Below are positions 1-63,886 of a DNA stretch of 64,000 nucleotides, one piece after another. How positions within the stretch are numbered: position 1 is the stretch's first letter; each line of letters begins with the position of its first letter. The position numbers were made by a program, and so were the translations under genes. The stretch lies in the sequence record MT887289.1; one strand, 5' to 3'. The notes below the pieces were generated by a model. The model made no database searches. It saw only the letters and a list, made by a program, of their open reading frames with translations, and was not told where the DNA came from. The DNA is from Escherichia phage SME50.

Positions 1-2259
1 ATGACCTATCAAGACTTCTTAGCTTCTTTCAAACTAGAAAGGTTTGTTCAGATTGCTGGGAGCACTATGACGGGGGATTTAGGTATTGTCAAGTTACTTT
101 ACGGTGGTAAGGCTGTATTTGACCCAACAGATTCTTCTGAGATTACTATTGGGGATATTTTAAAGACTTTTAAAATTAACTCAAATGGTCTTAAACTCAC
201 TATTGCAGATGCTTCAAGGTCGGCAACTGTTTATCATACTTTGAATAAACCAAGCCCTAATGAACTTGGTATGAGAACTAATGAAGAGAATGATGCAAGA
301 TATGCAAGGCTTGCTGTCACAAATAACTTCAGCATTAGGCAAGCAATCGTAACTGATGGTGAGCAGTTAACTCTTAAGAAGGCAACCAATGCAGGTGCTT
401 CATATATTCAAGGTAGAGATGCTAATAATCAGCAAACTTGGTATGTTGGACAGGGAAATGCAAACAGTACTAATGTTTATTTGTACAATCATGCTACTGG
501 TGCAATGTTAACCCTTGATGCAACAGCAGCATTTAATAAGTCACTTAGAATCACTGGTCAAGTCCAACCTTCAGATTTCTCTAACTTAGATGCTAGATAC
601 TTTACTCAGACAGTCGCTAATCAGAGATTTGCACAGTTAGCTGGTAATAACACTTTTACAGGTGCTAATACATTTAGGACTATGAGTATTATCTCAAATG
701 CTGCTGCTATCACACTACAATGTGCATCAGCAAATGAATCTCTGTATCTACTTGCAAAAGATTATCAAGGTGGTAACTTATGGTATGTTGGTAAAGGTAG
801 CTCAGGTGATGGTGTCACTATCTACAACTATACCACTAACACCTCTTTGGTCTTAGATGCTGCTGGAGTATCAGCAAATAAAAATGTCAGAATCACTGGT
901 CAAGTTCAACCTTCAGATTGGACTAACATTGACTCTAGATATATTCCGGCAGCTACTTTAAGTACGATTGCAAGAACTAATGCACAAAATACTTTTAATG
1001 GTGTGCAGAAAGTTGTTACGGATAATGAAGCCCTAATTGTGAAAAACTCCACTCAGAACAGACCATTGTATATTCGTGGTGTGGATACTGCTAATGTTTC
1101 AAGGTGGTGGGTGGGTGTTGGTGGTGCAGACAGCAATGATGTGACACTGAATAATAGCTTCTCTGGCACTCAGTTAGTTTTAGGTAACTCTTCTGCTTAT
1201 ATCAATAAGACACTGTCTCTAGCTGGACAGATTCAACCTTCAGATTGGTCTAACTTAGATGCTAGATACTATACCCAATCTACCGCAAACTCTAGGTATA
1301 TGCTTGCTTACTCTTCTGGCAGTGGTACAGAGGTGGGTGAGAGTGATGGTATTGTTTGGAATGCTAAAACTGGTCTGTATAATGTGTATAATAAATCTGG
1401 TGGCTCAACACAGTTAGTCTACCATATGTATCAGGGTTCAAGTTCTACACCATCTGCACAGTTTAAGTTTATCTACAGGAATGGTGGTATTTTTTACAGG
1501 ACAGCACGAGATGGGTATGGTTTTGAGCAGGCATGGGCTAAAATCTATACAGACCAAGATAAACCAACCCCTTCAGAAATTGGTGCATACACTAAAGCTG
1601 AAACTGACCAGAAGATTGCAGAAGCAATTAGTGACTCTACAGACCTGAATAAAATCTATCCAGTAGGTATTGTAACGTGGTTTAACAGTAATGTTAACCC
1701 TAATACAGCACTTCCTGGTCTAACTTGGACGTACCTGAATAATGGTGTTGGTAGAACTATTAGAATTGCAGCAGCAAACGGTTCAGATGTTGCTACAACT
1801 GGTGGTTCAGATTCTGTAACACTATCTGTTGGTAACTTACCTTCACACACGCATAGTTTCTCTGCTACCACTTCATCATTTGATTATGGTACTAAGACGA
1901 CAAATACGACTGGCAACCATGCTCATGATAGAGGTAACATGGAAATTTCTGGTGTGTTTGGTTGGTTCAGAAGTGATAACGGTGCATTCTACACTGCTAG
2001 TGGTGCATTTGTGATGGGTGGTAGTCAGGCTTCGCATGGCTTCACAGGCTCTAACTTCACTTATGGTGCGCCTGTTGATTTCCACGCGTCAAGAACTTGG
2101 ACAGGTGTAACCAACACGACTGGTAACCACGCCCACAGTGTAGGTATTGGCGCTCACAGCCACACAGTTAGTGGTAACACAGGTGGTACTGGTTCTGGTT
2201 CAGCATTTAGTGTTACTAACCAGTTCTATAAGCTAATGGCTTGGGTAAGGACTGCTTAA
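1..2259 (+). CDS. tail fiber / receptor-binding fiber protein (may be 5'-truncated by window edge)
   Basis: 752 aa; three internal repeats of the ITGQVQPSD(F/W)xN(L/I)D(A/S)RY type; C-terminal HxH motifs (GNHAHDRG, GNHAHSVGIGAHSH) typical of phage fiber tips; Gly/Ser/Thr/Asn-rich. Confidence 0.6.
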   Translation: MTYQDFLASFKLERFVQIAGSTMTGDLGIVKLLYGGKAVFDPTDSSEITIGDILKTFKINSNGLKLTIADASRSATVYHTLNKPSPNELGMRTNEENDARYARLAVTNNFSIRQAIVTDGEQLTLKKATNAGASYIQGRDANNQQTWYVGQGNANSTNVYLYNHATGAMLTLDATAAFNKSLRITGQVQPSDFSNLDARYFTQTVANQRFAQLAGNNTFTGANTFRTMSIISNAAAITLQCASANESLYLLAKDYQGGNLWYVGKGSSGDGVTIYNYTTNTSLVLDAAGVSANKNVRITGQVQPSDWTNIDSRYIPAATLSTIARTNAQNTFNGVQKVVTDNEALIVKNSTQNRPLYIRGVDTANVSRWWVGVGGADSNDVTLNNSFSGTQLVLGNSSAYINKTLSLAGQIQPSDWSNLDARYYTQSTANSRYMLAYSSGSGTEVGESDGIVWNAKTGLYNVYNKSGGSTQLVYHMYQGSSSTPSAQFKFIYRNGGIFYRTARDGYGFEQAWAKIYTDQDKPTPSEIGAYTKAETDQKIAEAISDSTDLNKIYPVGIVTWFNSNVNPNTALPGLTWTYLNNGVGRTIRIAAANGSDVATTGGSDSVTLSVGNLPSHTHSFSATTSSFDYGTKTTNTTGNHAHDRGNMEISGVFGWFRSDNGAFYTASGAFVMGGSQASHGFTGSNFTYGAPVDFHASRTWTGVTNTTGNHAHSVGIGAHSHTVSGNTGGTGSGSAFSVTNQFYKLMAWVRTA

Positions 2260-26472: not shown

Positions 26473-26714
26473 TGACTTATGTAATTTACTCCAAAACTGG
26501 ATGCCCTCAGTGTGAGACTGCAAAGAATTTTGCAAAAGCTCGTGGTATTGACCATGTTGTGAGAATGTTGGGGCAGGATTATGAACTGTCAGACCTGATT
26601 GATATTGCACAGATGCCAGTTCGTCAGATGCCATTCATCATGAAAACTGACGGTCAAAACCTAAAACCTGTTGGAACGCTACAGAATTTTATGGCAGAGG
26701 TGAATAATGCTTAA
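26472..26714 (+). CDS. glutaredoxin-like redoxin
   Basis: 80 aa; CPQC active site at N-terminus; adjacent to nrdAB. Confidence 0.6.
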   Translation: MTYVIYSKTGCPQCETAKNFAKARGIDHVVRMLGQDYELSDLIDIAQMPVRQMPFIMKTDGQNLKPVGTLQNFMAEVNNA

Positions 26715-26913
26715 ACGCCTTTGGGAAGGTTTGGTTGTTGATGCACCAGCTATTGTGATTGGTATGCTTGTTGTTAACCTATTTACTGATTTTGAACAAG
26801 GTTCGTTGTTCGGAGCCATGTTACTATGGGTTATCTTTGAAATATTAGAAATACAGTTAGGCATCACTGAAAAACTAAGAGAACTTGTTTCGAAGTTTTC
26901 TAAAAAGATTTAA
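26707..26913 (+). CDS. small membrane protein
   Basis: 68 aa; two hydrophobic segments. Confidence 0.35.
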   Translation: MLKRLWEGLVVDAPAIVIGMLVVNLFTDFEQGSLFGAMLLWVIFEILEIQLGITEKLRELVSKFSKKI

Positions 26914-26917
26914 AATG

Positions 26918-26943
26918 AAAGGGTCTCTTCGGAGACCTTTTTA
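26918..26943 (+). terminator. intrinsic terminator
   Basis: aaagggtctcttcggagaccttt plus tt. Confidence 0.6.
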
Positions 26944-26961
26944 GCATGTAAAGGGGCAATA

Positions 26962-28158
26962 ATGAACAAAGTACAGATTATTAAAAAGAACGGCTCACTT
27001 GAAGAACCTGATATCAAAAAAGTTTTAGCAGCAGTAACTAAGTCAGCTAACAGAGTTGGGTATAAAGAACTCCCACCAGATGTTACCCAAGCTCTTGAGT
27101 CAGCATTTATGAGGATTCTGGTAAAGTCCACTAAGCAGAATAATTTGCTCATCTCGGTAAACGATATTCACAGTATTGTTGAAGGTGCTTTGGCAGAAGT
27201 CAATCACGAGATTTATGAGTCTTACTCAACATACAGAAATTACCGTAAAGAGGTTGCTCAAAATTGGGATGAGCTTTACCAAAAGACTAAAGACACACTC
27301 TTCTTAGGTGACCGTGAAAACGCTAACTTTGACAGTAGTTTAATTTCTACAAAAGGCTCAATTATTCGTGGTTACCTGACTAAAGAAATCTTTAAACAGT
27401 ACCATTTAACACCAGAGGAACTTGAAGCCATTGAAAAAGGGTTTATCTACATCCATGACTTAAGAGACCTAATTTTTGGTGGGATTAACTGTTGCCTGTT
27501 CGACATTGGTAAAGTACTGAAAGGTGGCTTTGAAATGTCTGGCATCGAATACTGTGAACCAAAGTCTGTACTGTCAGCCTTACAAGTTATCGGTGATGTA
27601 GTTCTTTCAGCAACTGCACAGCAATTTGGTGGATTTACTTTAGCAGAGATTGATAAGGTGCTTGTACCGTATGCTAAGAAGTCTCTACGCTATCATGCTG
27701 AGAAAGCAGCATCTTACGGTATTCCTAAAGAACATTACCATAATTATGTCATGGAGCAGCTACAGATTGAATTAACTCAAGGTTTCCAGTCACTAGAGAT
27801 GAAGCTAAATACTGTACCTTGCAGCCGTGGTGATTTCGCATTCACAACTTTAACATTTGGTTTACTTGACTCAGACATGTCTAATGAAGACAACCGACTA
27901 CAATACATGATTGCAAACACCATTCTTGATGTTCGCATGAATGGACAAGGTAAGAGCAAGAAGCCTGTTGTATTCCCTAAACTGGTTTATATTCATGACC
28001 AGAAGAGACACGATGAGAATATCTGTCAAGGTCAACTGTACAGTAAAGCTATTGAGTGTTGCTCTAAAGCAATGTATCCAGATTTCTTAAGCGTATCTGG
28101 TCATGGTGCTGTAGCAGAGGCTTTTGAGCGTTCTGGCAAGGTCATTTCACCGATGGGT
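26962..28158 (+). CDS. nrdD: anaerobic ribonucleotide reductase, exon 1
   Basis: N-terminal ATP-cone; reading frame ends ...KVISPMG then stop; last exon nt is T. Confidence 0.8.
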
Positions 28159-28900
28159 TAACAAGCTCTATAGCTCATCTAAAACGTGCCTAAACAGGGA
28201 AACTCTACAGGTGTAGACAATCCTGTGCTAAATGATGTACGATGTAAGAAACTATATAAAATAGGAGTATTACATGCCAAATTATCATGTTACTGAGGAC
28301 GGAAGAGTCTTTAGGAAAAATGGTGTAGAACTTACGCAGTGGAAATCCAACACTGGTTATATGAAAGTAAGGTTTTATGGAAGGAAGAATCGTGACATGT
28401 ATGTCCATAGGTTAGTTGCTGAAAAGTATGTACCTAACCCTAACAATCTTCCAATTGTAAAACACAAAGATGATAACAAACTGAACAACCATGCTTCTAA
28501 CTTAGAATGGGGAACTCATTCTGAGAATGTTAAAGAAGGCTATGAGAATGGTTGCTACAAGTTTTGTAAGCGTTCATATGCTGTGAAGGCTACACATAAA
28601 GTGACAAAAGAAGTTATTGTTGCTAAGTCAATACGAGAGTTATCTAATGTACTTGGGTATAATCGCAAGACTATCTCTTCAATATTGAAGGGTGTAAAAG
28701 AGTATAATAACTTTGAACATGATTTTGAGTACATTTAAATGCCGAACGACTAACCGTGATGAATGTAGCGGTGTAGGGTCAAGCGACTCGAAATGGTACG
28801 CTACTTAGAAATAAGTAGAAGATATAGTCTGGACTTACTGGTGACAGTAAGCAGCTTGAATAAAGCGGGGTAAGCGTAGCGAACTTACCTGAACAACAAG
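28159..28900 (+). mobile_element. group I intron in nrdD carrying an HNH homing endonuclease
   Basis: exon 1 ends in U, intron ends in G; joining 28158 to 28901 restores in-frame ...SPMG-CRAFLSPYLNEDGEEFYVGR...; in-frame stop at 28877 upstream of exon 2. Confidence 0.75.
28274..28738 (+). CDS. HNH homing endonuclease (intron-encoded)
   Basis: 154 aa; HRLVAEKYVPNPNNLPIVKHKDDNKLNNHASNLEWGTHSEN resembles HNH motif. Confidence 0.7.
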   Translation: MPNYHVTEDGRVFRKNGVELTQWKSNTGYMKVRFYGRKNRDMYVHRLVAEKYVPNPNNLPIVKHKDDNKLNNHASNLEWGTHSENVKEGYENGCYKFCKRSYAVKATHKVTKEVIVAKSIRELSNVLGYNRKTISSILKGVKEYNNFEHDFEYI

Positions 28901-29848
28901 TGTAGAGCGTTTTTATCACCATATCTTAATGAGGATGGGGAAGAGTTCTATGTTGGTCGTGCTAACATTGGTGCTGTATCTTTGAACTTGCCTATGATTT
29001 ACCAGTATTCTAAAGAGAATGGTTTAGATTTCTGGAAAGAGCTTGATAAGTACCTAGAGATGATTCGCAGCTTCCACAAGAAACGCTACGAAATGATTGC
29101 TAATATGCCAGCAAGTTCTAACCCTCTTGCATTCACACAAGGTGGTCTGTACAAAGGGACTAAGAAACCTACTGATAAGGTTGGTTGGGATATTGTGAAG
29201 TCTTTCACAGCTTCTTTTGGGGTTACTGCTCTTGATGAGTTGTCGGTTCTTGCTGAGGGTAAACGACTCCATGAAGTTGGAAGCTATAGTTTTGCATACG
29301 ATGTTCTGGCATACATTAACATGAAAACTGAGGAGTTTAAAAATGAAGATGGCTTCTTATATGCCGTCTATGGTACTCCAGCAGAATCACTTTGCGGGAC
29401 TCAGCTAAAACAGTTCAGAGATATGTTTGGCGTTATCAAAGGTGTTTCTGATAAGGAATACTTTACAAACAGTTTCCATATGAATGTTGCAGCGGATATC
29501 TCACCATTTGAGAAGCAGGACTTAGAAGAACCATTCTTCCATATCTGTAGAGGCGGCAGAATCCAGTATGTGAGGGTAGCTAACCCAGAAAACTTACCAG
29601 CACTTAAAAGTTGTATTACAAGAGGCATGTTGAAGGGTTTTTATCAGGGACTTAACTTTGACTTAGCAATCTGTGAACATTGTGGTAACAGACCAAAGGC
29701 TGATGTTGAAGAATGTGAGGTTTGCCATTCACATGACATCTCTGTGATTAACAGGGTGTGTGGTTATCTTGGATGGACTAAGATTAAAGGTGAATCACGA
29801 ATGAACGATGCAAAAATTGCTGAGATTCGTGACAGGGTTTCTATGTAA
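28901..29848 (+). CDS. nrdD: anaerobic ribonucleotide reductase, exon 2
   Basis: C-terminal glycyl-radical motif RVCGYLG and CxxC zinc site (CEHCGN...CEVCHSH). Confidence 0.8.
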   Translation, partial: CRAFLSPYLNEDGEEFYVGRANIGAVSLNLPMIYQYSKENGLDFWKELDKYLEMIRSFHKKRYEMIANMPASSNPLAFTQGGLYKGTKKPTDKVGWDIVKSFTASFGVTALDELSVLAEGKRLHEVGSYSFAYDVLAYINMKTEEFKNEDGFLYAVYGTPAESLCGTQLKQFRDMFGVIKGVSDKEYFTNSFHMNVAADISPFEKQDLEEPFFHICRGGRIQYVRVANPENLPALKSCITRGMLKGFYQGLNFDLAICEHCGNRPKADVEECEVCHSHDISVINRVCGYLGWTKIKGESRMNDAKIAEIRDRVSM

Positions 29849-30002
29849 AACTTGACAAGGTGGTGTGAGTCTTGATAGGCTTACATCACCTTTTTTATTG
29901 GATGTTAGATATGGCAGAGAGCATCATGGGCCTGTTCATAGGTTCTGTCTTACTGGGGTTCTTTTTAGGACTCTCTTATTGTGAGTTGAGAGATAAGTTA
30001 AA

Positions 30003-30203
30003 ATGTTTAAAATATCAAAAACGTTGATATACATACTTCACATTCTAATCTTCTTTTTTGGAGTTAGTGTTATGGTATGGGGTTTTTCAGACCCACAATG
30101 GAGTTTCGCATATCATGGTCAGATGGATTTATGGTCATGCTTCAAACCATTTTTAGGGTTAGCTATAGCATTCAGTGCATTACCAACTAGGGTGAAATTA
30201 TGA
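30003..30203 (+). CDS. small membrane protein
   Basis: 66 aa; two hydrophobic helices. Confidence 0.4.
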   Translation: MFKISKTLIYILHILIFFFGVSVMVWGFSDPQWSFAYHGQMDLWSCFKPFLGLAIAFSALPTRVKL

Positions 30204-63405: not shown

Positions 63406-63482
63406 CTCTGTTTAGCTCAGCTTGGTAGAGCGTTCCGTTTGGGGCGGTAAGGCCGGAGGTTCAAGTCCTCCAACAGAGACCA
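63406..63482 (+). tRNA. tRNA-Pro (anticodon UGG), CCA encoded
   Basis: hand-folded cloverleaf: acceptor ctctgtt/aacagag, D-arm gctc...gagc, anticodon loop tttgggg, T-arm ggagg-ttcaagt-cctcc; one U-U mismatch in anticodon stem. Confidence 0.6.
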
Positions 63483-63489
63483 AATTAAT

Positions 63490-63567
63490 GTTCCAGTAGA
63501 CAAAACGGTAAAGTCACCACTCTTTCAAAGTGGATATTTGAGGGTTCAAATCCCTTCTGGAACGCCA
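63490..63567 (+). tRNA. tRNA-Glu (anticodon UUC), CCA encoded
   Basis: acceptor gttccag/ctggaac, anticodon stem ccact/agtgg with loop ctttcaa, T-loop ttcaaat. Confidence 0.65.
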
Positions 63568-63658
63568 GTTTTGACAGAAGACCAATTGCAGCAAACTTAA
63601 TCTTATTCATCTGACACGAAATCGGACAAAGAAGATATTTGGTCTGGTCATTAAGAAT

Positions 63659-63735
63659 TGCGGGTATAGAGAAAGGGCGTCTCACATGTCTCATTAGCAT
63701 GGTATCGGCAGGTTCGACTCCTGCACCCGCCTCCA
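63659..63735 (+). tRNA. tRNA-Met family (anticodon CAU), CCA encoded
   Basis: T-arm gcagg-ttcgact-cctgc, anticodon stem catgt/gcatg with loop ctcatta; position 1-72 appears mismatched, so could be initiator-like or Ile2-like. Confidence 0.55.
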
Positions 63736-63812
63736 ATTTTGCAGAAGACCGTATTCAGCAACAAAATACTTTTTGCGGATAAAAGAAAAAACACGGTCTG
63801 GCAATGTATTAA

Positions 63813-63886
63813 GGTTAGGAAGCACATAAGGTATGTGCGGTCGCCTGTTAAGCGAATGGCACAGGGTTCGAATCCCTGACTAACCG
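63813..63886 (+). tRNA. tRNA-Asn (anticodon GUU)
   Basis: acceptor ggttagg/actaacc, D-stem gcac/gtgc, anticodon loop ctgttaa, T-arm caggg-ttcgaat-ccctg; CCA not encoded. Confidence 0.6.

What the first reader, a model, noticed from the sequence alone, without database searches (positions are those of the whole stretch)
26962..29848. nrdD interrupted by a group I intron carrying an HNH homing endonuclease
The two NrdD ORF fragments are separated by 742 nt that contains a complete HNH endonuclease ORF (28274..28738). Exon 1 ends with U (28158) and the intervening sequence ends with G (28900). Joining 28158 to 28901 gives the in-frame junction ...KVISPMG-CRAFLSPYLNEDGEEFYVGR..., matching the conserved NrdD region where T4-like phages are known to carry a self-splicing intron. 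An in-frame stop at 28877 excludes simple read-through or an intein.
Basis: partly seen in the sequence, partly recalled or inferred. Interest (0 to 1): 0.5.

Follow-up and report, generated by a model that had tools for sequence, protein, structure and literature searches.

The report
Self-splicing intron with homing nuclease in nrdD
The anaerobic ribonucleotide reductase gene of this Felix O1-like phage is interrupted, just before the codon of its catalytic cysteine, by a genuine T4-type group I self-splicing intron carrying an I-HmuI-like HNH homing endonuclease gene; it is a well-understood kind of mobile element that genome annotations usually record as two gene fragments.

Summary

- **Host genome:** the window is a Felixounavirus, 97.3% identical to Salmonella phage SP116.
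- **Intron:** bases 28159-28900 (742 nt) form a subgroup IA2 group I intron. All helices P1, P3-P9.2 and P10 are canonical. It has a U•G 5' splice site and a terminal G.
- **Endonuclease gene:** the HNH ORF (28274-28738) sits in the P6a loop.
- **Rfam:** the family model misses its threshold on the window itself (38.6 bits against 50) because of the ORF. ORF-deleted alleles of the same intron in sister phages pass (54.9 and 60.4 bits).
- **Splice junction:** intron-less sister phages such as FO1a have exactly the predicted junction, ATGGGT|TG.
- **Covariation:** twelve related introns show strong covariation, with 89% of cells paired against 36-42% in slid controls.
- **Insertion site:** the intron lies immediately before Cys400, which aligns with T4 NrdD Cys290.
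- **Correction:** T4's own nrdD intron lies about 120 codons upstream. Phi92 and a Vibrio phage carry introns at this exact site.
- **Protein:** the HNH protein is a homologue of I-HmuI.

Verdict: a new member of a known kind, of modest interest. Splicing and cleavage have not been tested experimentally.

The parts
26962..28158 (+). nrdD exon 1 (399 codons: ATP-cone plus the N-terminal half of NrdD), ending ...SPMG
   Evidence: ORF list. Pfam ATP-cone 4.3e-12 and NRDD profile positions 1-250. A Shine-Dalgarno-like AGGGG lies 6 nt before the ATG.
28159..28900 (+). Group I intron, subgroup IA2, 742 nt. It begins UAA, which is a stop in the exon-1 frame, and ends with the terminal G at 28900.
   Evidence: It is absent, base for base, from intron-less FO1a/D4/warpig/Pr103Blw. 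RF00028 scores 38.6 plus 17.6 bits here; ORF-less alleles score 54.9 and 60.4 bits against a gathering score of 50.
28152..28179 (+). P1: exon GAUGGGU (28152-58) pairs with the internal guide GCUCAUC (28173-79). The splice-site pair is U28158•G28173.
   Evidence: 7 canonical pairs. The outermost pair changes G-C to C-G in phi92-type introns.
28165..28172 (+). P10 guide GCUCUAUA, directly 5' of the P1 guide. It pairs with exon 2 bases 28901-28908 (UGUAGAGC).
   Evidence: 8 canonical pairs, recovered by the unconstrained minimum-energy fold. Vibrio phage F96 has a different 8-bp P10 (GAUUGGCA/UGCCGAUC) that matches its own exon 2.
28185..28240 (+). 5' half of the ribozyme core: P3 5' strand (28185-90), P4 (28194-99/28221-26), P5 (28204-08/28213-17), P6 (28227-28), P6a 5' strand (28234-40). 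There is no P2.
   Evidence: All pairs canonical. P3, P4 and P5 recovered by RNAalifold with compensatory changes.
28263..28267 (+). Shine-Dalgarno AGGAG of the intron ORF, 6 nt before the ATG
   Evidence: Read directly from the sequence.
28274..28738 (+). HNH homing-endonuclease gene (154 aa) in the P6a loop. Its last codons and stop form the 3' strand of P6a.
   Evidence: Pfam HNH_3 2.7e-10. I-HmuI (PDB 1u3e) E 8.4e-10 over residues 3-115. PHROG 59 HNH endonuclease 3.2e-43. Between alleles, third-codon positions are 73-88% identical while the whole ORF is 89-95% identical, which indicates purifying selection.
28729..28890 (+). 3' half of the core: P6a' (28729-35), P6' (28741-42), P7 (28747-52 with 28825-31), P7.1 (28753-56/28769-72), P7.2 (28776-80/28785-89), P3' (28795-800), P8 (28801-07/28812-18), P9 (28834-40/28845-51, GUGA loop), P9.1 (28854-57/28863-66), P9.2 (28868-76/28880-90)
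   Evidence: All pairs canonical. Covariation shown. About 71% identical to the T4 td intron over the 160 nt that BLAST aligns, and 76% identical to the T4 nrdD intron from J1/3 to P9.
28901..29848 (+). nrdD exon 2 (315 codons plus stop), starting with Cys400, which aligns with T4 NrdD Cys290. It includes the glycyl-radical domain.
   Evidence: Pfam NRDD profile positions 264-560 and Gly_radical. PMGCR aligns without gaps to solved NrdD structures and to T4 P287-C290. No start codon occurs in frame before TTG 28982, and no Shine-Dalgarno sequence precedes 28982 or 28994.

Best explanation
Bases 28159-28900 are a mobile group I intron of subgroup IA2. It is a T4 sunY/td-type ribozyme that lacks P2 and has P7.1, P7.2, P9.1 and P9.2. 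It is inserted in the nrdD gene of a Felixounavirus between the Gly399 and Cys400 codons.

How it most likely works (inferred from the canonical group I mechanism):
1. The internal guide GCUCAUC pairs with the last 7 exon bases (P1, with U28158•G28173).
2. Exogenous guanosine bound at P7 attacks after U28158.
3. The adjacent guide GCUCUAUA holds the first 8 bases of exon 2 (P10).
4. The free exon-1 3'-OH attacks after the terminal G28900 and ligates the exons.
5. The ligated mRNA encodes an uninterrupted 714-aa NrdD with the motif SPMG-CRAF.

The P6a loop carries a separately translated gene with its own AGGAG ribosome-binding site. It encodes a 154-aa HNH endonuclease related to I-HmuI. By analogy with I-HmuI and I-BasI, this enzyme probably nicks intron-less nrdD alleles of co-infecting Felixounaviruses a few bases into exon 2. 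Recombinational repair would then copy the intron and a short stretch of donor exon 2 into the recipient.

Shown here: the exact boundaries, the ribozyme architecture and its covariation, the homologies, and the three allelic states in the genus. Inferred, not shown: splicing activity, endonuclease activity and the cleavage site.
For: 1. **Exact boundaries.** Intron-less alleles (FO1a, D4, warpig, Pr103Blw, ESh19) read ...CCGATGGGT|TGYAG... with nothing in between. The spliced product aligns without gaps across the junction to solved NrdD structures.
2. **Rfam.** RF00028 scores 54.9 and 60.4 bits (gathering score 50) on two ORF-deleted alleles that are otherwise nearly identical to this intron. 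On the window itself the match is split by the ORF into 38.6 and 17.6 bits.
3. **Helices.** All 81 proposed pairs in P1, P3-P9.2 and P10 are canonical. The unconstrained fold of the ORF-excised intron recovers P10, P3, P4, P5, P7.1, P7.2, P8, P9, P9.1 and P9.2, with z = -2.84.
4. **Covariation in 12 related introns.**
   - RNAalifold finds the same helices on its own, and 30 of its 48 pairs carry compensatory changes.
   - On my structure, 89% of cells pair against 36-42% when the partner is slid.
   - 39 of 68 pairs change on both sides.
   - 0 of 500 shuffles reach the observed values.
   - P10 covaries with exon 2 in Vibrio phage F96.
5. **Homology.** The core is homologous to the T4 nrdD intron (76% from J1/3 to P9) and to the td intron. 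I take it from established knowledge that both self-splice.
6. **Selection.**
   - The window and FO1a exons differ at 126 synonymous and 15 non-synonymous codons.
   - The non-coding ribozyme is 97-100% identical between alleles whose exon third positions are 80-91% identical.
   - Exon 2 codons 400-426 are conserved as protein but have no start codon or ribosome-binding site of their own.
7. **HNH protein.** Pfam HNH_3. I-HmuI E 8.4e-10, with H64/N76/N85 aligned to I-HmuI H75/N87/N96.
8. **Signs of mobility.**
   - All three stages of a homing cycle occur in the genus: about 60 records have intron plus HNH, about 32 have the intron without the ORF, and the 74%-coverage (intron-less) class takes up many rows of the spread listing.
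   - All 5 fixed differences between intron-plus and intron-less alleles lie in exon 2 at +3 to +51.
   - Intron similarity does not track exon similarity.
Against: - The window's own sequence does not reach the Rfam gathering score (38.6 against 50). The explanation, a 488-nt loop insertion, is inferred from the ORF-less alleles.
- No RNA or protein data were available, so splicing, endonuclease activity and cleavage position are untested.
- The residue aligned with I-HmuI D74 is Lys63, and the C-terminal NUMOD1 match is below threshold (E 0.038). Nuclease competence is therefore not assured.
- The sample behind the 5 fixed exon differences is small (11 alleles against 4).
- The 12-intron alignment was gathered through a conserved 25-nt P7/P7.1 motif, so those columns are invariant by construction.
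- MAFFT misplaces parts of P9.1 and inner P7.2, where only 54-65% of cells pair.
Confidence: 0.92

Rival explanations
1. Genes in pieces. A homing-endonuclease gene cassette split nrdD into two independently translated fragments that assemble into an active enzyme without RNA splicing, as described for Aeromonas phage Aeh1 nrdA split by mobE.
For: GenBank records annotate two NrdD CDSs plus an HNH gene. Bardina et al. 2016 describe nrdD of UAB_Phi87 simply as a split gene interrupted by a homing endonuclease gene. Dwivedi et al. 2013 describe the Aeh1 precedent.
Against: - The first in-frame start in exon 2 is TTG 28982 or ATG 28994. Neither has a Shine-Dalgarno sequence, and either would drop 27-31 residues, including the cysteine aligned with T4 C290.
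- Those residues are nevertheless conserved as protein through synonymous changes.
- About 280 nt of non-coding sequence around the ORF forms a complete, covarying group I core.
- That sequence is kept at 97-100% identity and is retained even in alleles that have lost the ORF.
Confidence: 0.03
2. Decayed intron. The ribozyme no longer splices, or needs a missing factor, so nrdD is a pseudogene in this phage and the aerobic NrdAB reductase suffices.
For: Splicing was not tested. The Rfam score on the window is below the gathering score. Intron-less and intron-containing phages coexist, so nrdD function might be dispensable under laboratory conditions.
Against: - Every core pair is canonical, and the P7 strands that would carry the guanosine-binding site (paired G28748-C28829, unpaired U28830) are invariant across relatives.
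- Both exons stay open and show 126 synonymous against 15 non-synonymous codon differences from an intron-less allele.
- All 10 further intron-containing alleles examined also give a single uninterrupted 714-codon reading frame after removal of the intron.
Confidence: 0.04
3. The intron splices, but its HNH protein is no longer an active homing enzyme. The intron would then be immobile, as the T4 nrdB intron with defunct I-TevIII is, or it would depend on another nuclease acting in trans.
For: Lys63 stands where I-HmuI has Asp74. The protein is short (154 aa) and its C-terminal DNA-binding match is sub-threshold. About a third of intron-bearing records have lost the ORF. Trans-homing of the defunct I-TevIII by mobE is documented (title and abstract of PMC2790892, listed).
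Against: The ORF is intact in all 7 ORF-bearing alleles examined. Substitutions fall mostly at third codon positions. It has a strong ribosome-binding site. The H, N and N residues of the HNH motif are conserved. Some alleles carry nearly identical introns (99.5-100%) in exons that are only 94.6-96.4% identical.
Confidence: 0.25
4. Intein or translational read-through or bypass of the insert.
For: None beyond the fact that the two halves are parts of one protein.
Against: The insert begins with TAA in the exon-1 frame and has TAG at 28877 in the exon-2 frame. The HNH ORF has its own start and stop. No intein domains were found.
Confidence: 0

Closest known systems
Phage T4 nrdD (sunY) group I intron with I-TevII
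   Same: Same host gene and same ribozyme type: IA2, no P2, with P7.1/P7.2. It has the same internal guide core GCUCAU. It is 76% identical from J1/3 to P9, the highest of the introns compared.
   Different: The insertion site differs: T4 codon about 180, which aligns with window residue 280/281, about 120 codons upstream. In T4 the ORF follows the ribozyme core, and the record annotates I-TevII as a GIY-YIG family endonuclease. Here an HNH gene sits in the P6a loop.
Phage T4 td group I intron with I-TevI
   Same: IA2 architecture with the ORF in the P6 extension. The intron starts with UAA directly after exon ...GGGU. The P7.2, P9 and P9.2 sequences are very similar (68% over the core).
   Different: The host gene is thymidylate synthase. 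It has a P2 helix. Its endonuclease is annotated as GIY-YIG family, not HNH.
Same-site nrdD introns of coliphage phi92 (annotated 'spliced variant') and Vibrio phage F96
   Same: The insertion point is identical (ATGGGT | TG, before the catalytic Cys codon). The cores are homologous and both lack P2. F96 also has an HNH ORF in the P6 loop.
   Different: These are different phage lineages. The phi92 intron has no ORF. The cores are 66-74% identical to this one. F96 has a different P10 guide, matched to its own exon 2.
I-HmuI (Bacillus phage SPO1 DNA polymerase intron) and its relatives I-HmuII, I-BasI and I-TwoI
   Same: Sequence homology across the N-terminal DNA-binding and HNH regions (E 8.4e-10), and all are encoded in phage group I introns. 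These enzymes are nickases. [quoted passage not shown] That matches the exon-2 location of the fixed allele differences here.
   Different: The host gene and target sequence differ. The protein here is 154 aa against 174 aa. Lys stands at the position of I-HmuI D74. Its activity is untested.

Membership tests
Group I intron (Rfam RF00028), subgroup IA2 | Covariance-model score at or above the curated gathering score (50 bits) | tested here: inconclusive
   The window itself scores 38.6 bits (28671-28851) plus 17.6 bits (28194-28268), below threshold. The same intron with the ORF deleted scores 54.9 bits (S19cd) and 60.4 bits (RPN213), above threshold. The shortfall is attributed to the 488-nt insertion in the P6a loop.
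Group I intron (Rfam RF00028), subgroup IA2 | Conserved core: the P4-P6 and P3-P8 domains with the P3/P7 pseudoknot, supported by covariation | tested here: met
   All pairs are canonical. RNAalifold recovers P3, P4, P5, P7.1, P7.2, P8, P9 and P9.2, with 30 of 48 pairs compensatory. 89% of cells pair against 36-42% in slid controls, and 0 of 500 shuffles reach the observed values. P7 is invariant, so it gives no evidence either way.
Group I intron (Rfam RF00028), subgroup IA2 | 5' splice site after a U that forms a U•G wobble at the end of P1 with an internal guide sequence | tested here: met
   U28158•G28173 closes a 7-bp P1. The distal pair is G-C here and C-G in phi92-type introns.
Group I intron (Rfam RF00028), subgroup IA2 | Terminal G and P10 pairing with the 3' exon | tested here: met
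   G28900 is the terminal base. An 8-bp P10 (28165-72 with 28901-08) lies directly next to the P1 guide. The F96 guide is fully compensatory for its own exon 2.
Group I intron (Rfam RF00028), subgroup IA2 | IA2-specific peripheral helices P7.1 and P7.2 between P7 and P3' | tested here: met
   P7.1 is 28753-56/28769-72 and P7.2 is 28776-80/28785-89. Both have compensatory changes.
Group I intron (Rfam RF00028), subgroup IA2 | Precise excision restores the host reading frame | tested here: met
   Intron-less alleles are identical to the predicted ligated exons at the junction. PMGCR aligns without gaps to solved NrdD structures.
Group I intron (Rfam RF00028), subgroup IA2 | Guanosine-dependent self-splicing | not testable with these tools
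   This needs in-vitro transcription with GTP labelling, or RT-PCR from infected cells.
I-HmuI-type HNH homing endonuclease | HNH catalytic motif | tested here: met
   Pfam HNH_3 scores 40.2 bits against a cut-off of 24.8. H64, N76 and N85 align with I-HmuI H75, N87 and N96. Lys63 stands where I-HmuI has D74.
I-HmuI-type HNH homing endonuclease | N-terminal DNA-binding sheet plus a C-terminal helix-turn-helix (NUMOD1-type) | tested here: inconclusive
   The I-HmuI alignment covers residues 3-115. The NUMOD1 match has E 0.038 and 14.7 bits, below the cut-off of 22.8. The single-sequence AlphaFold model was unusable, with pLDDT 35.
I-HmuI-type HNH homing endonuclease | Site-specific nicking of the intron-less allele and promotion of homing | not testable with these tools
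   Only indirect evidence exists: the fixed differences lie on the exon-2 side, and intron and exon similarities disagree between alleles.
Intein | In-frame insertion without stop codons, with splicing domains | tested here: not met
   TAA at 28159 and TAG at 28877 are in frame. No intein domains were found.
Genes-in-pieces split by a free-standing endonuclease gene (Aeh1 nrdA/mobE type) | The downstream fragment has its own start codon and ribosome-binding site, and there is no ribozyme | tested here: not met
   There is no start codon before 28982 and no Shine-Dalgarno sequence. A complete ribozyme is present.

The most novel reading that the evidence does not exclude
The sunY-type ribozyme may have moved between two sites of the same gene by reverse splicing. 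The T4 nrdD intron and this intron share 76% of their core, both lack P2, and both carry the same guide core 5'-GCUCAU-3'. That guide can pair with the 5' exon at the T4 site (AUGAGU) and at this site (AUGGGU, one G•U). After the move, the intron would have acquired a different endonuclease gene (HNH in P6a instead of I-TevII downstream of the core), which now drives its spread. By analogy with PhiPA3 gp210 (PMC11620839), that endonuclease may also act as a weapon against intron-less Felixounaviruses in co-infection.
Probability: 0.15. Interest if true: 0.55.

Novelty: new member of a known kind. Interest (0 to 1): 0.28.

Why it matters
**Annotation.** Felixounaviruses are widely used as Salmonella and E. 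coli typing and biocontrol phages. About 90 public genomes carry this element. Nearly all of those listed annotate nrdD as two fragments plus an HNH gene or hypothetical proteins, without recognising the intron or the 714-aa product. The Felix O1 genome paper states that the prototype phage has no introns, and I found no paper that links Felixounavirus with a group I intron.

**A natural homing series.** The genus holds empty sites, intron plus endonuclease gene, and two independent ORF deletions, all in otherwise 90-97% identical genomes. The candidate recognition or co-conversion tract is already narrowed to +3..+51 of exon 2. That makes it a convenient system for studying homing and intron-mediated phage competition.

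**Limits.** It does not change how these elements are understood.

Tried and rejected
- **Rfam at gathering threshold on the whole window:** no intron hit. This is explained by the ORF insertion and resolved through the ORF-less alleles.
- **AlphaFold2 on the HNH protein as a single sequence:** pLDDT 35, unusable, so no fold search was run.
- **MAFFT alignment of the 12 introns:** it misaligns P9.1 and the inner part of P7.2 (54-65% paired). I did not build a covariance model to repair this because the remaining helices already decide the question.
- **Promoter scan of 26700-30100:** no more sites than chance (6 found, 8.8 expected), so it says nothing about expression of the HNH gene.
- **Literature:**
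  - The phi92 genome paper is not held in the library.
  - Moreno Switt et al. 2013 mentions homing endonucleases inserted into genes but neither nrdD nor introns.
  - No paper combines Felixounavirus with 'group I intron'.
- **Rejected on the sequence:** intein and read-through.
- **Rejected:** the idea that the T4 nrdD intron occupies this site.
- **Not used:** the large protein-database searches, because the I-HmuI and Pfam matches were sufficient.
Full report
**1. Observation.**
The window is a Felix O1-like phage. The region 26962-29848 is 97.3% identical to Salmonella phage SP116 and 90-96% identical to dozens of Felixounavirus genomes.
- The ORF 26962-28161 ends ...ISPMG, with GGT at 28156-28158 followed by TAA.
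- A 154-aa ORF lies at 28274-28738.
- Base 28900 is G.
- The frame from 28901 reads CRAFLSPYLNEDGEEFYVGR... to 29848.
- TAG at 28877 is in that frame.

Pfam places exon 1 on NRDD profile positions 1-250 (plus an ATP-cone) and exon 2 on positions 264-560 (plus Gly_radical). The middle ORF matches HNH_3.

**2. Exact boundaries from natural alleles.**
The public phage collection holds three states of this locus.
- The 742-nt insert with the HNH ORF: about 60 records.
- The same insert with the ORF deleted: 316 nt in S19cd-type and 292 nt in RPN213-type alleles, about 32 records.
- No insert at all: Felix O1a, D4, warpig, Pr103Blw and others. This 74%-coverage class takes up many rows of the spread listing.

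Aligning the three states shows that intron-less genes read ...CCGATGGGT|TGCAGAGC.... That is exactly exon 1 joined to exon 2 at 28158|28901. A one-base ambiguity (T/T) is resolved by the group I rules. The spliced 714-aa product aligns without gaps across the junction to solved NrdD structures (SPMGCRAFL against APMGCRSFL). Cys400, the first codon of exon 2, aligns with Cys290 of T4 NrdD. From established knowledge (Logan 1999; Andersson 2001) I take Cys290 to be the thiyl-radical cysteine.

**3. The insert is a group I ribozyme.**
Rfam finds nothing at its gathering score on the window. With relaxed filters RF00028 matches in two pieces on either side of the ORF, at 38.6 and 17.6 bits. It is the only non-tRNA hit in the 64 kb at E<=0.01. 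The ORF-deleted alleles, otherwise nearly identical, score 54.9 and 60.4 bits against a gathering score of 50. I assigned these helices, and all pairs are canonical:
- P1 28152-58/28173-79
- P10 28165-72/28901-08
- P3 28185-90/28795-800
- P4, P5, P6
- P6a, with the ORF in its loop
- P7 28747-52/28825-31
- P7.1, P7.2, P8
- P9, with a GUGA loop
- P9.1 and P9.2

There is no P2. An unconstrained fold of the ORF-excised intron recovers P10, P3, P4, P5, P7.1, P7.2, P8, P9, P9.1 and P9.2, with z = -2.84.

**4. Covariation.**
A scan of IMG/VR with the 25-nt P7/P7.1 motif gave 35 loci. From these, plus phi92, Vibrio phage F96 and T4 td, I aligned 12 distinct introns with their ORFs excised.
- RNAalifold, given no structure, found the same helices. 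Of its 48 pairs, 30 carry compensatory changes.
- On my structure 89% of cells pair, against 36-42% when the 3' partner is slid by 1-3 columns.
- 39 of 68 pairs change on both sides, and no shuffle out of 500 reaches the observed values.
- P3 alone shows CGUGCC/GGUACG, UCUGCC/GGUAGA, CAUCCU/GGGAUG, CCUACC/GGUAGG and CUCCUC/GGGGAG.
- P1 and P10 covary too. The outermost P1 pair is G-C here and C-G in phi92-type introns. F96 has an entirely different 8-bp P10 (GAUUGGCA/UGCCGAUC) that fits its own exon 2.

Caveats: the sequences were collected through a conserved motif, so P7 and P7.1 are partly invariant by construction. MAFFT also misplaces P9.1 and part of P7.2.

**5.
From J1/3 to P9 the core is 76% identical to the T4 nrdD (sunY) intron, 74% to F96, 68% to T4 td and 66% to phi92. 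However, T4 and JK45 carry their nrdD intron at about T4 codon 180, which aligns with window residue 280/281, about 120 codons upstream. There the I-TevII gene lies downstream of the ribozyme core. The statement that this is the region where T4-like phages carry their intron is therefore wrong in detail.

Introns at exactly this site exist in several other places:
- phi92, which has no ORF, scores 70.6 bits in Rfam and is annotated as a 'spliced variant';
- Vibrio phage F96, which has an HNH ORF in the same loop;
- IMG/VR contigs L012, L036, L037 and L042.

**6. The ORF.**
The 154-aa protein matches I-HmuI (PDB 1u3e) at E 8.4e-10 over residues 3-115. H64, N76 and N85 align with I-HmuI H75, N87 and N96, but Lys63 stands opposite D74. 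It also matches PHROG 59 'HNH endonuclease' at 3e-43 and has a sub-threshold NUMOD1 match at residues 111-137. It has a consensus AGGAG 6 nt before its ATG. Its last codons form the 3' strand of P6a. Between alleles, its third codon positions are 73-88% identical while the whole ORF is 89-95% identical, which indicates purifying selection.

**7. Evidence that the gene is expressed through splicing.**
- The window and FO1a exons differ at 126 synonymous and 15 non-synonymous codons.
- All 11 intron-containing alleles give one open 714-codon frame once the intron is removed.
- The first 27 codons of exon 2 (CRAFLSPY...) are conserved as protein through synonymous changes. They have no in-frame start before TTG 28982 and no Shine-Dalgarno sequence.
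- The non-coding ribozyme is 97-100% identical between alleles whose exon third positions are only 80-91% identical.

These points argue against both the 'genes in pieces' reading (the Aeh1 nrdA/mobE precedent) and a dead intron.

**8. Evidence for mobility (indirect).**
- The genus shows empty sites, full introns and ORF-deleted introns.
- The two ORF-less forms come from different deletions. The S19cd type fuses ATG-CCA-AAT in frame to the last ten codons.
- Intron similarity does not follow exon similarity. For example, the introns are 100% identical where the exons are 96.4% identical, and 99.5% identical where the exons are 94.6% identical. The pair with the most similar exons (97.0%) has introns only 96.0% identical.
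- There are 428 variable sites among 11 intron-plus and 4 intron-less Felixounavirus alleles. Only 5 of them are fixed between the two classes. All 5 lie in exon 2 at +3, +9, +12, +18 and +51, and all are synonymous.
- The +3 change also perfects P10.

[quoted passage not shown] The sample is small, and the pattern cannot separate co-conversion from target-site immunity.

**9. What is known.**
- The Felix O1 genome paper states that the prototype has no introns, which is correct for that phage.
- Bardina et al. 2016 note that nrdD of UAB_Phi87 and a few relatives is 'split' by a homing endonuclease gene, without invoking an intron.
- Moreno Switt et al. 2013 mention endonuclease genes inserted into genes.
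- No paper in the library combines Felixounavirus with 'group I intron'.
- Group I introns with HNH or GIY-YIG genes in phage ribonucleotide reductase genes are a classic, well-studied class.

**10. Verdict.**
This is a genuine group I (IA2) intron with an I-HmuI-type HNH gene. It is a new, under-annotated member of a known kind and of modest interest. Splicing and endonuclease activity are inferred, not demonstrated. The least ordinary reading still open is that a sunY-type ribozyme with the guide GCUCAU moved between two AUGRGU sites of nrdD and swapped its endonuclease gene, and that the HNH enzyme serves in competition between co-infecting Felixounaviruses (compare PhiPA3 gp210).

Noticed in passing
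window 28901-28951 (exon 2, +3,+9,+12,+18,+51): All 5 nucleotide differences fixed between 11 intron-containing and 4 intron-less Felixounavirus nrdD alleles fall here. All are synonymous third positions, and none lies in exon 1 or elsewhere in the 2145 nt. This is a candidate homing-site or co-conversion tract.
   Followed up: partly
L001 (S19cd) 1501-1816; L003 (RPN213) 1504-1795: Two independent deletions removed the HNH ORF from the same intron. The 316-nt form keeps the ribosome-binding site and ATG-CCA-AAT, fused in frame to the last 10 codons. The 292-nt form removes the start as well. These are the degenerate stages of a homing cycle within one genus.
   Followed up: partly
IMG/VR loci L010, L013, L015, L018, L019, L033: Introns sharing the 25-nt P7/P7.1 motif interrupt other phage genes: terminase large subunit (L015), family A DNA polymerase (L018), Pol III alpha (L013) and tape-measure genes (L010, L019 by Pfam; L033 by resemblance only).
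   Followed up: partly
L005 (T4) nrdD 5' splice site compared with window 28152-28179: The T4 nrdD intron and this intron use the same guide core GCUCAU. It pairs with AUGAGU at the T4 site and with AUGGGU here, about 120 codons apart in the same gene. This is compatible with a site switch by reverse splicing, which was not tested.
   Followed up: no
window 28253-28263: TATATAAAATA lies directly upstream of the HNH ribosome-binding site and resembles the T4 late-promoter motif TATAAATA (recalled from memory). It may allow separate, late expression of the endonuclease. The sigma-70 scan says nothing on this.
   Followed up: no
Pseudomonas phiKZ-like phages (H73-H79, H145-H148), Campylobacter phages (H80, H81, H103): Stretches of 40-160 nt of the 3' intron core match unannotated regions of jumbo Pseudomonas phages and of Campylobacter phages at 73-98% identity. 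These are probably unannotated group I introns there.
   Followed up: no
window 29857-29892: A strong terminator-like hairpin (16 pairs, then a T run) lies 9 nt after the nrdD stop.
   Followed up: no
window 63406-63886: Three tRNA genes at the end of the window. This fits the known tRNA cluster of Felix O1-like phages.
   Followed up: no
L006 (Vibrio phage F96) 1-3700: The nrdD of this phage appears to be cut into at least three or four pieces, with two HNH genes. That suggests two introns in one gene, the second of them at the Cys site.
   Followed up: partly
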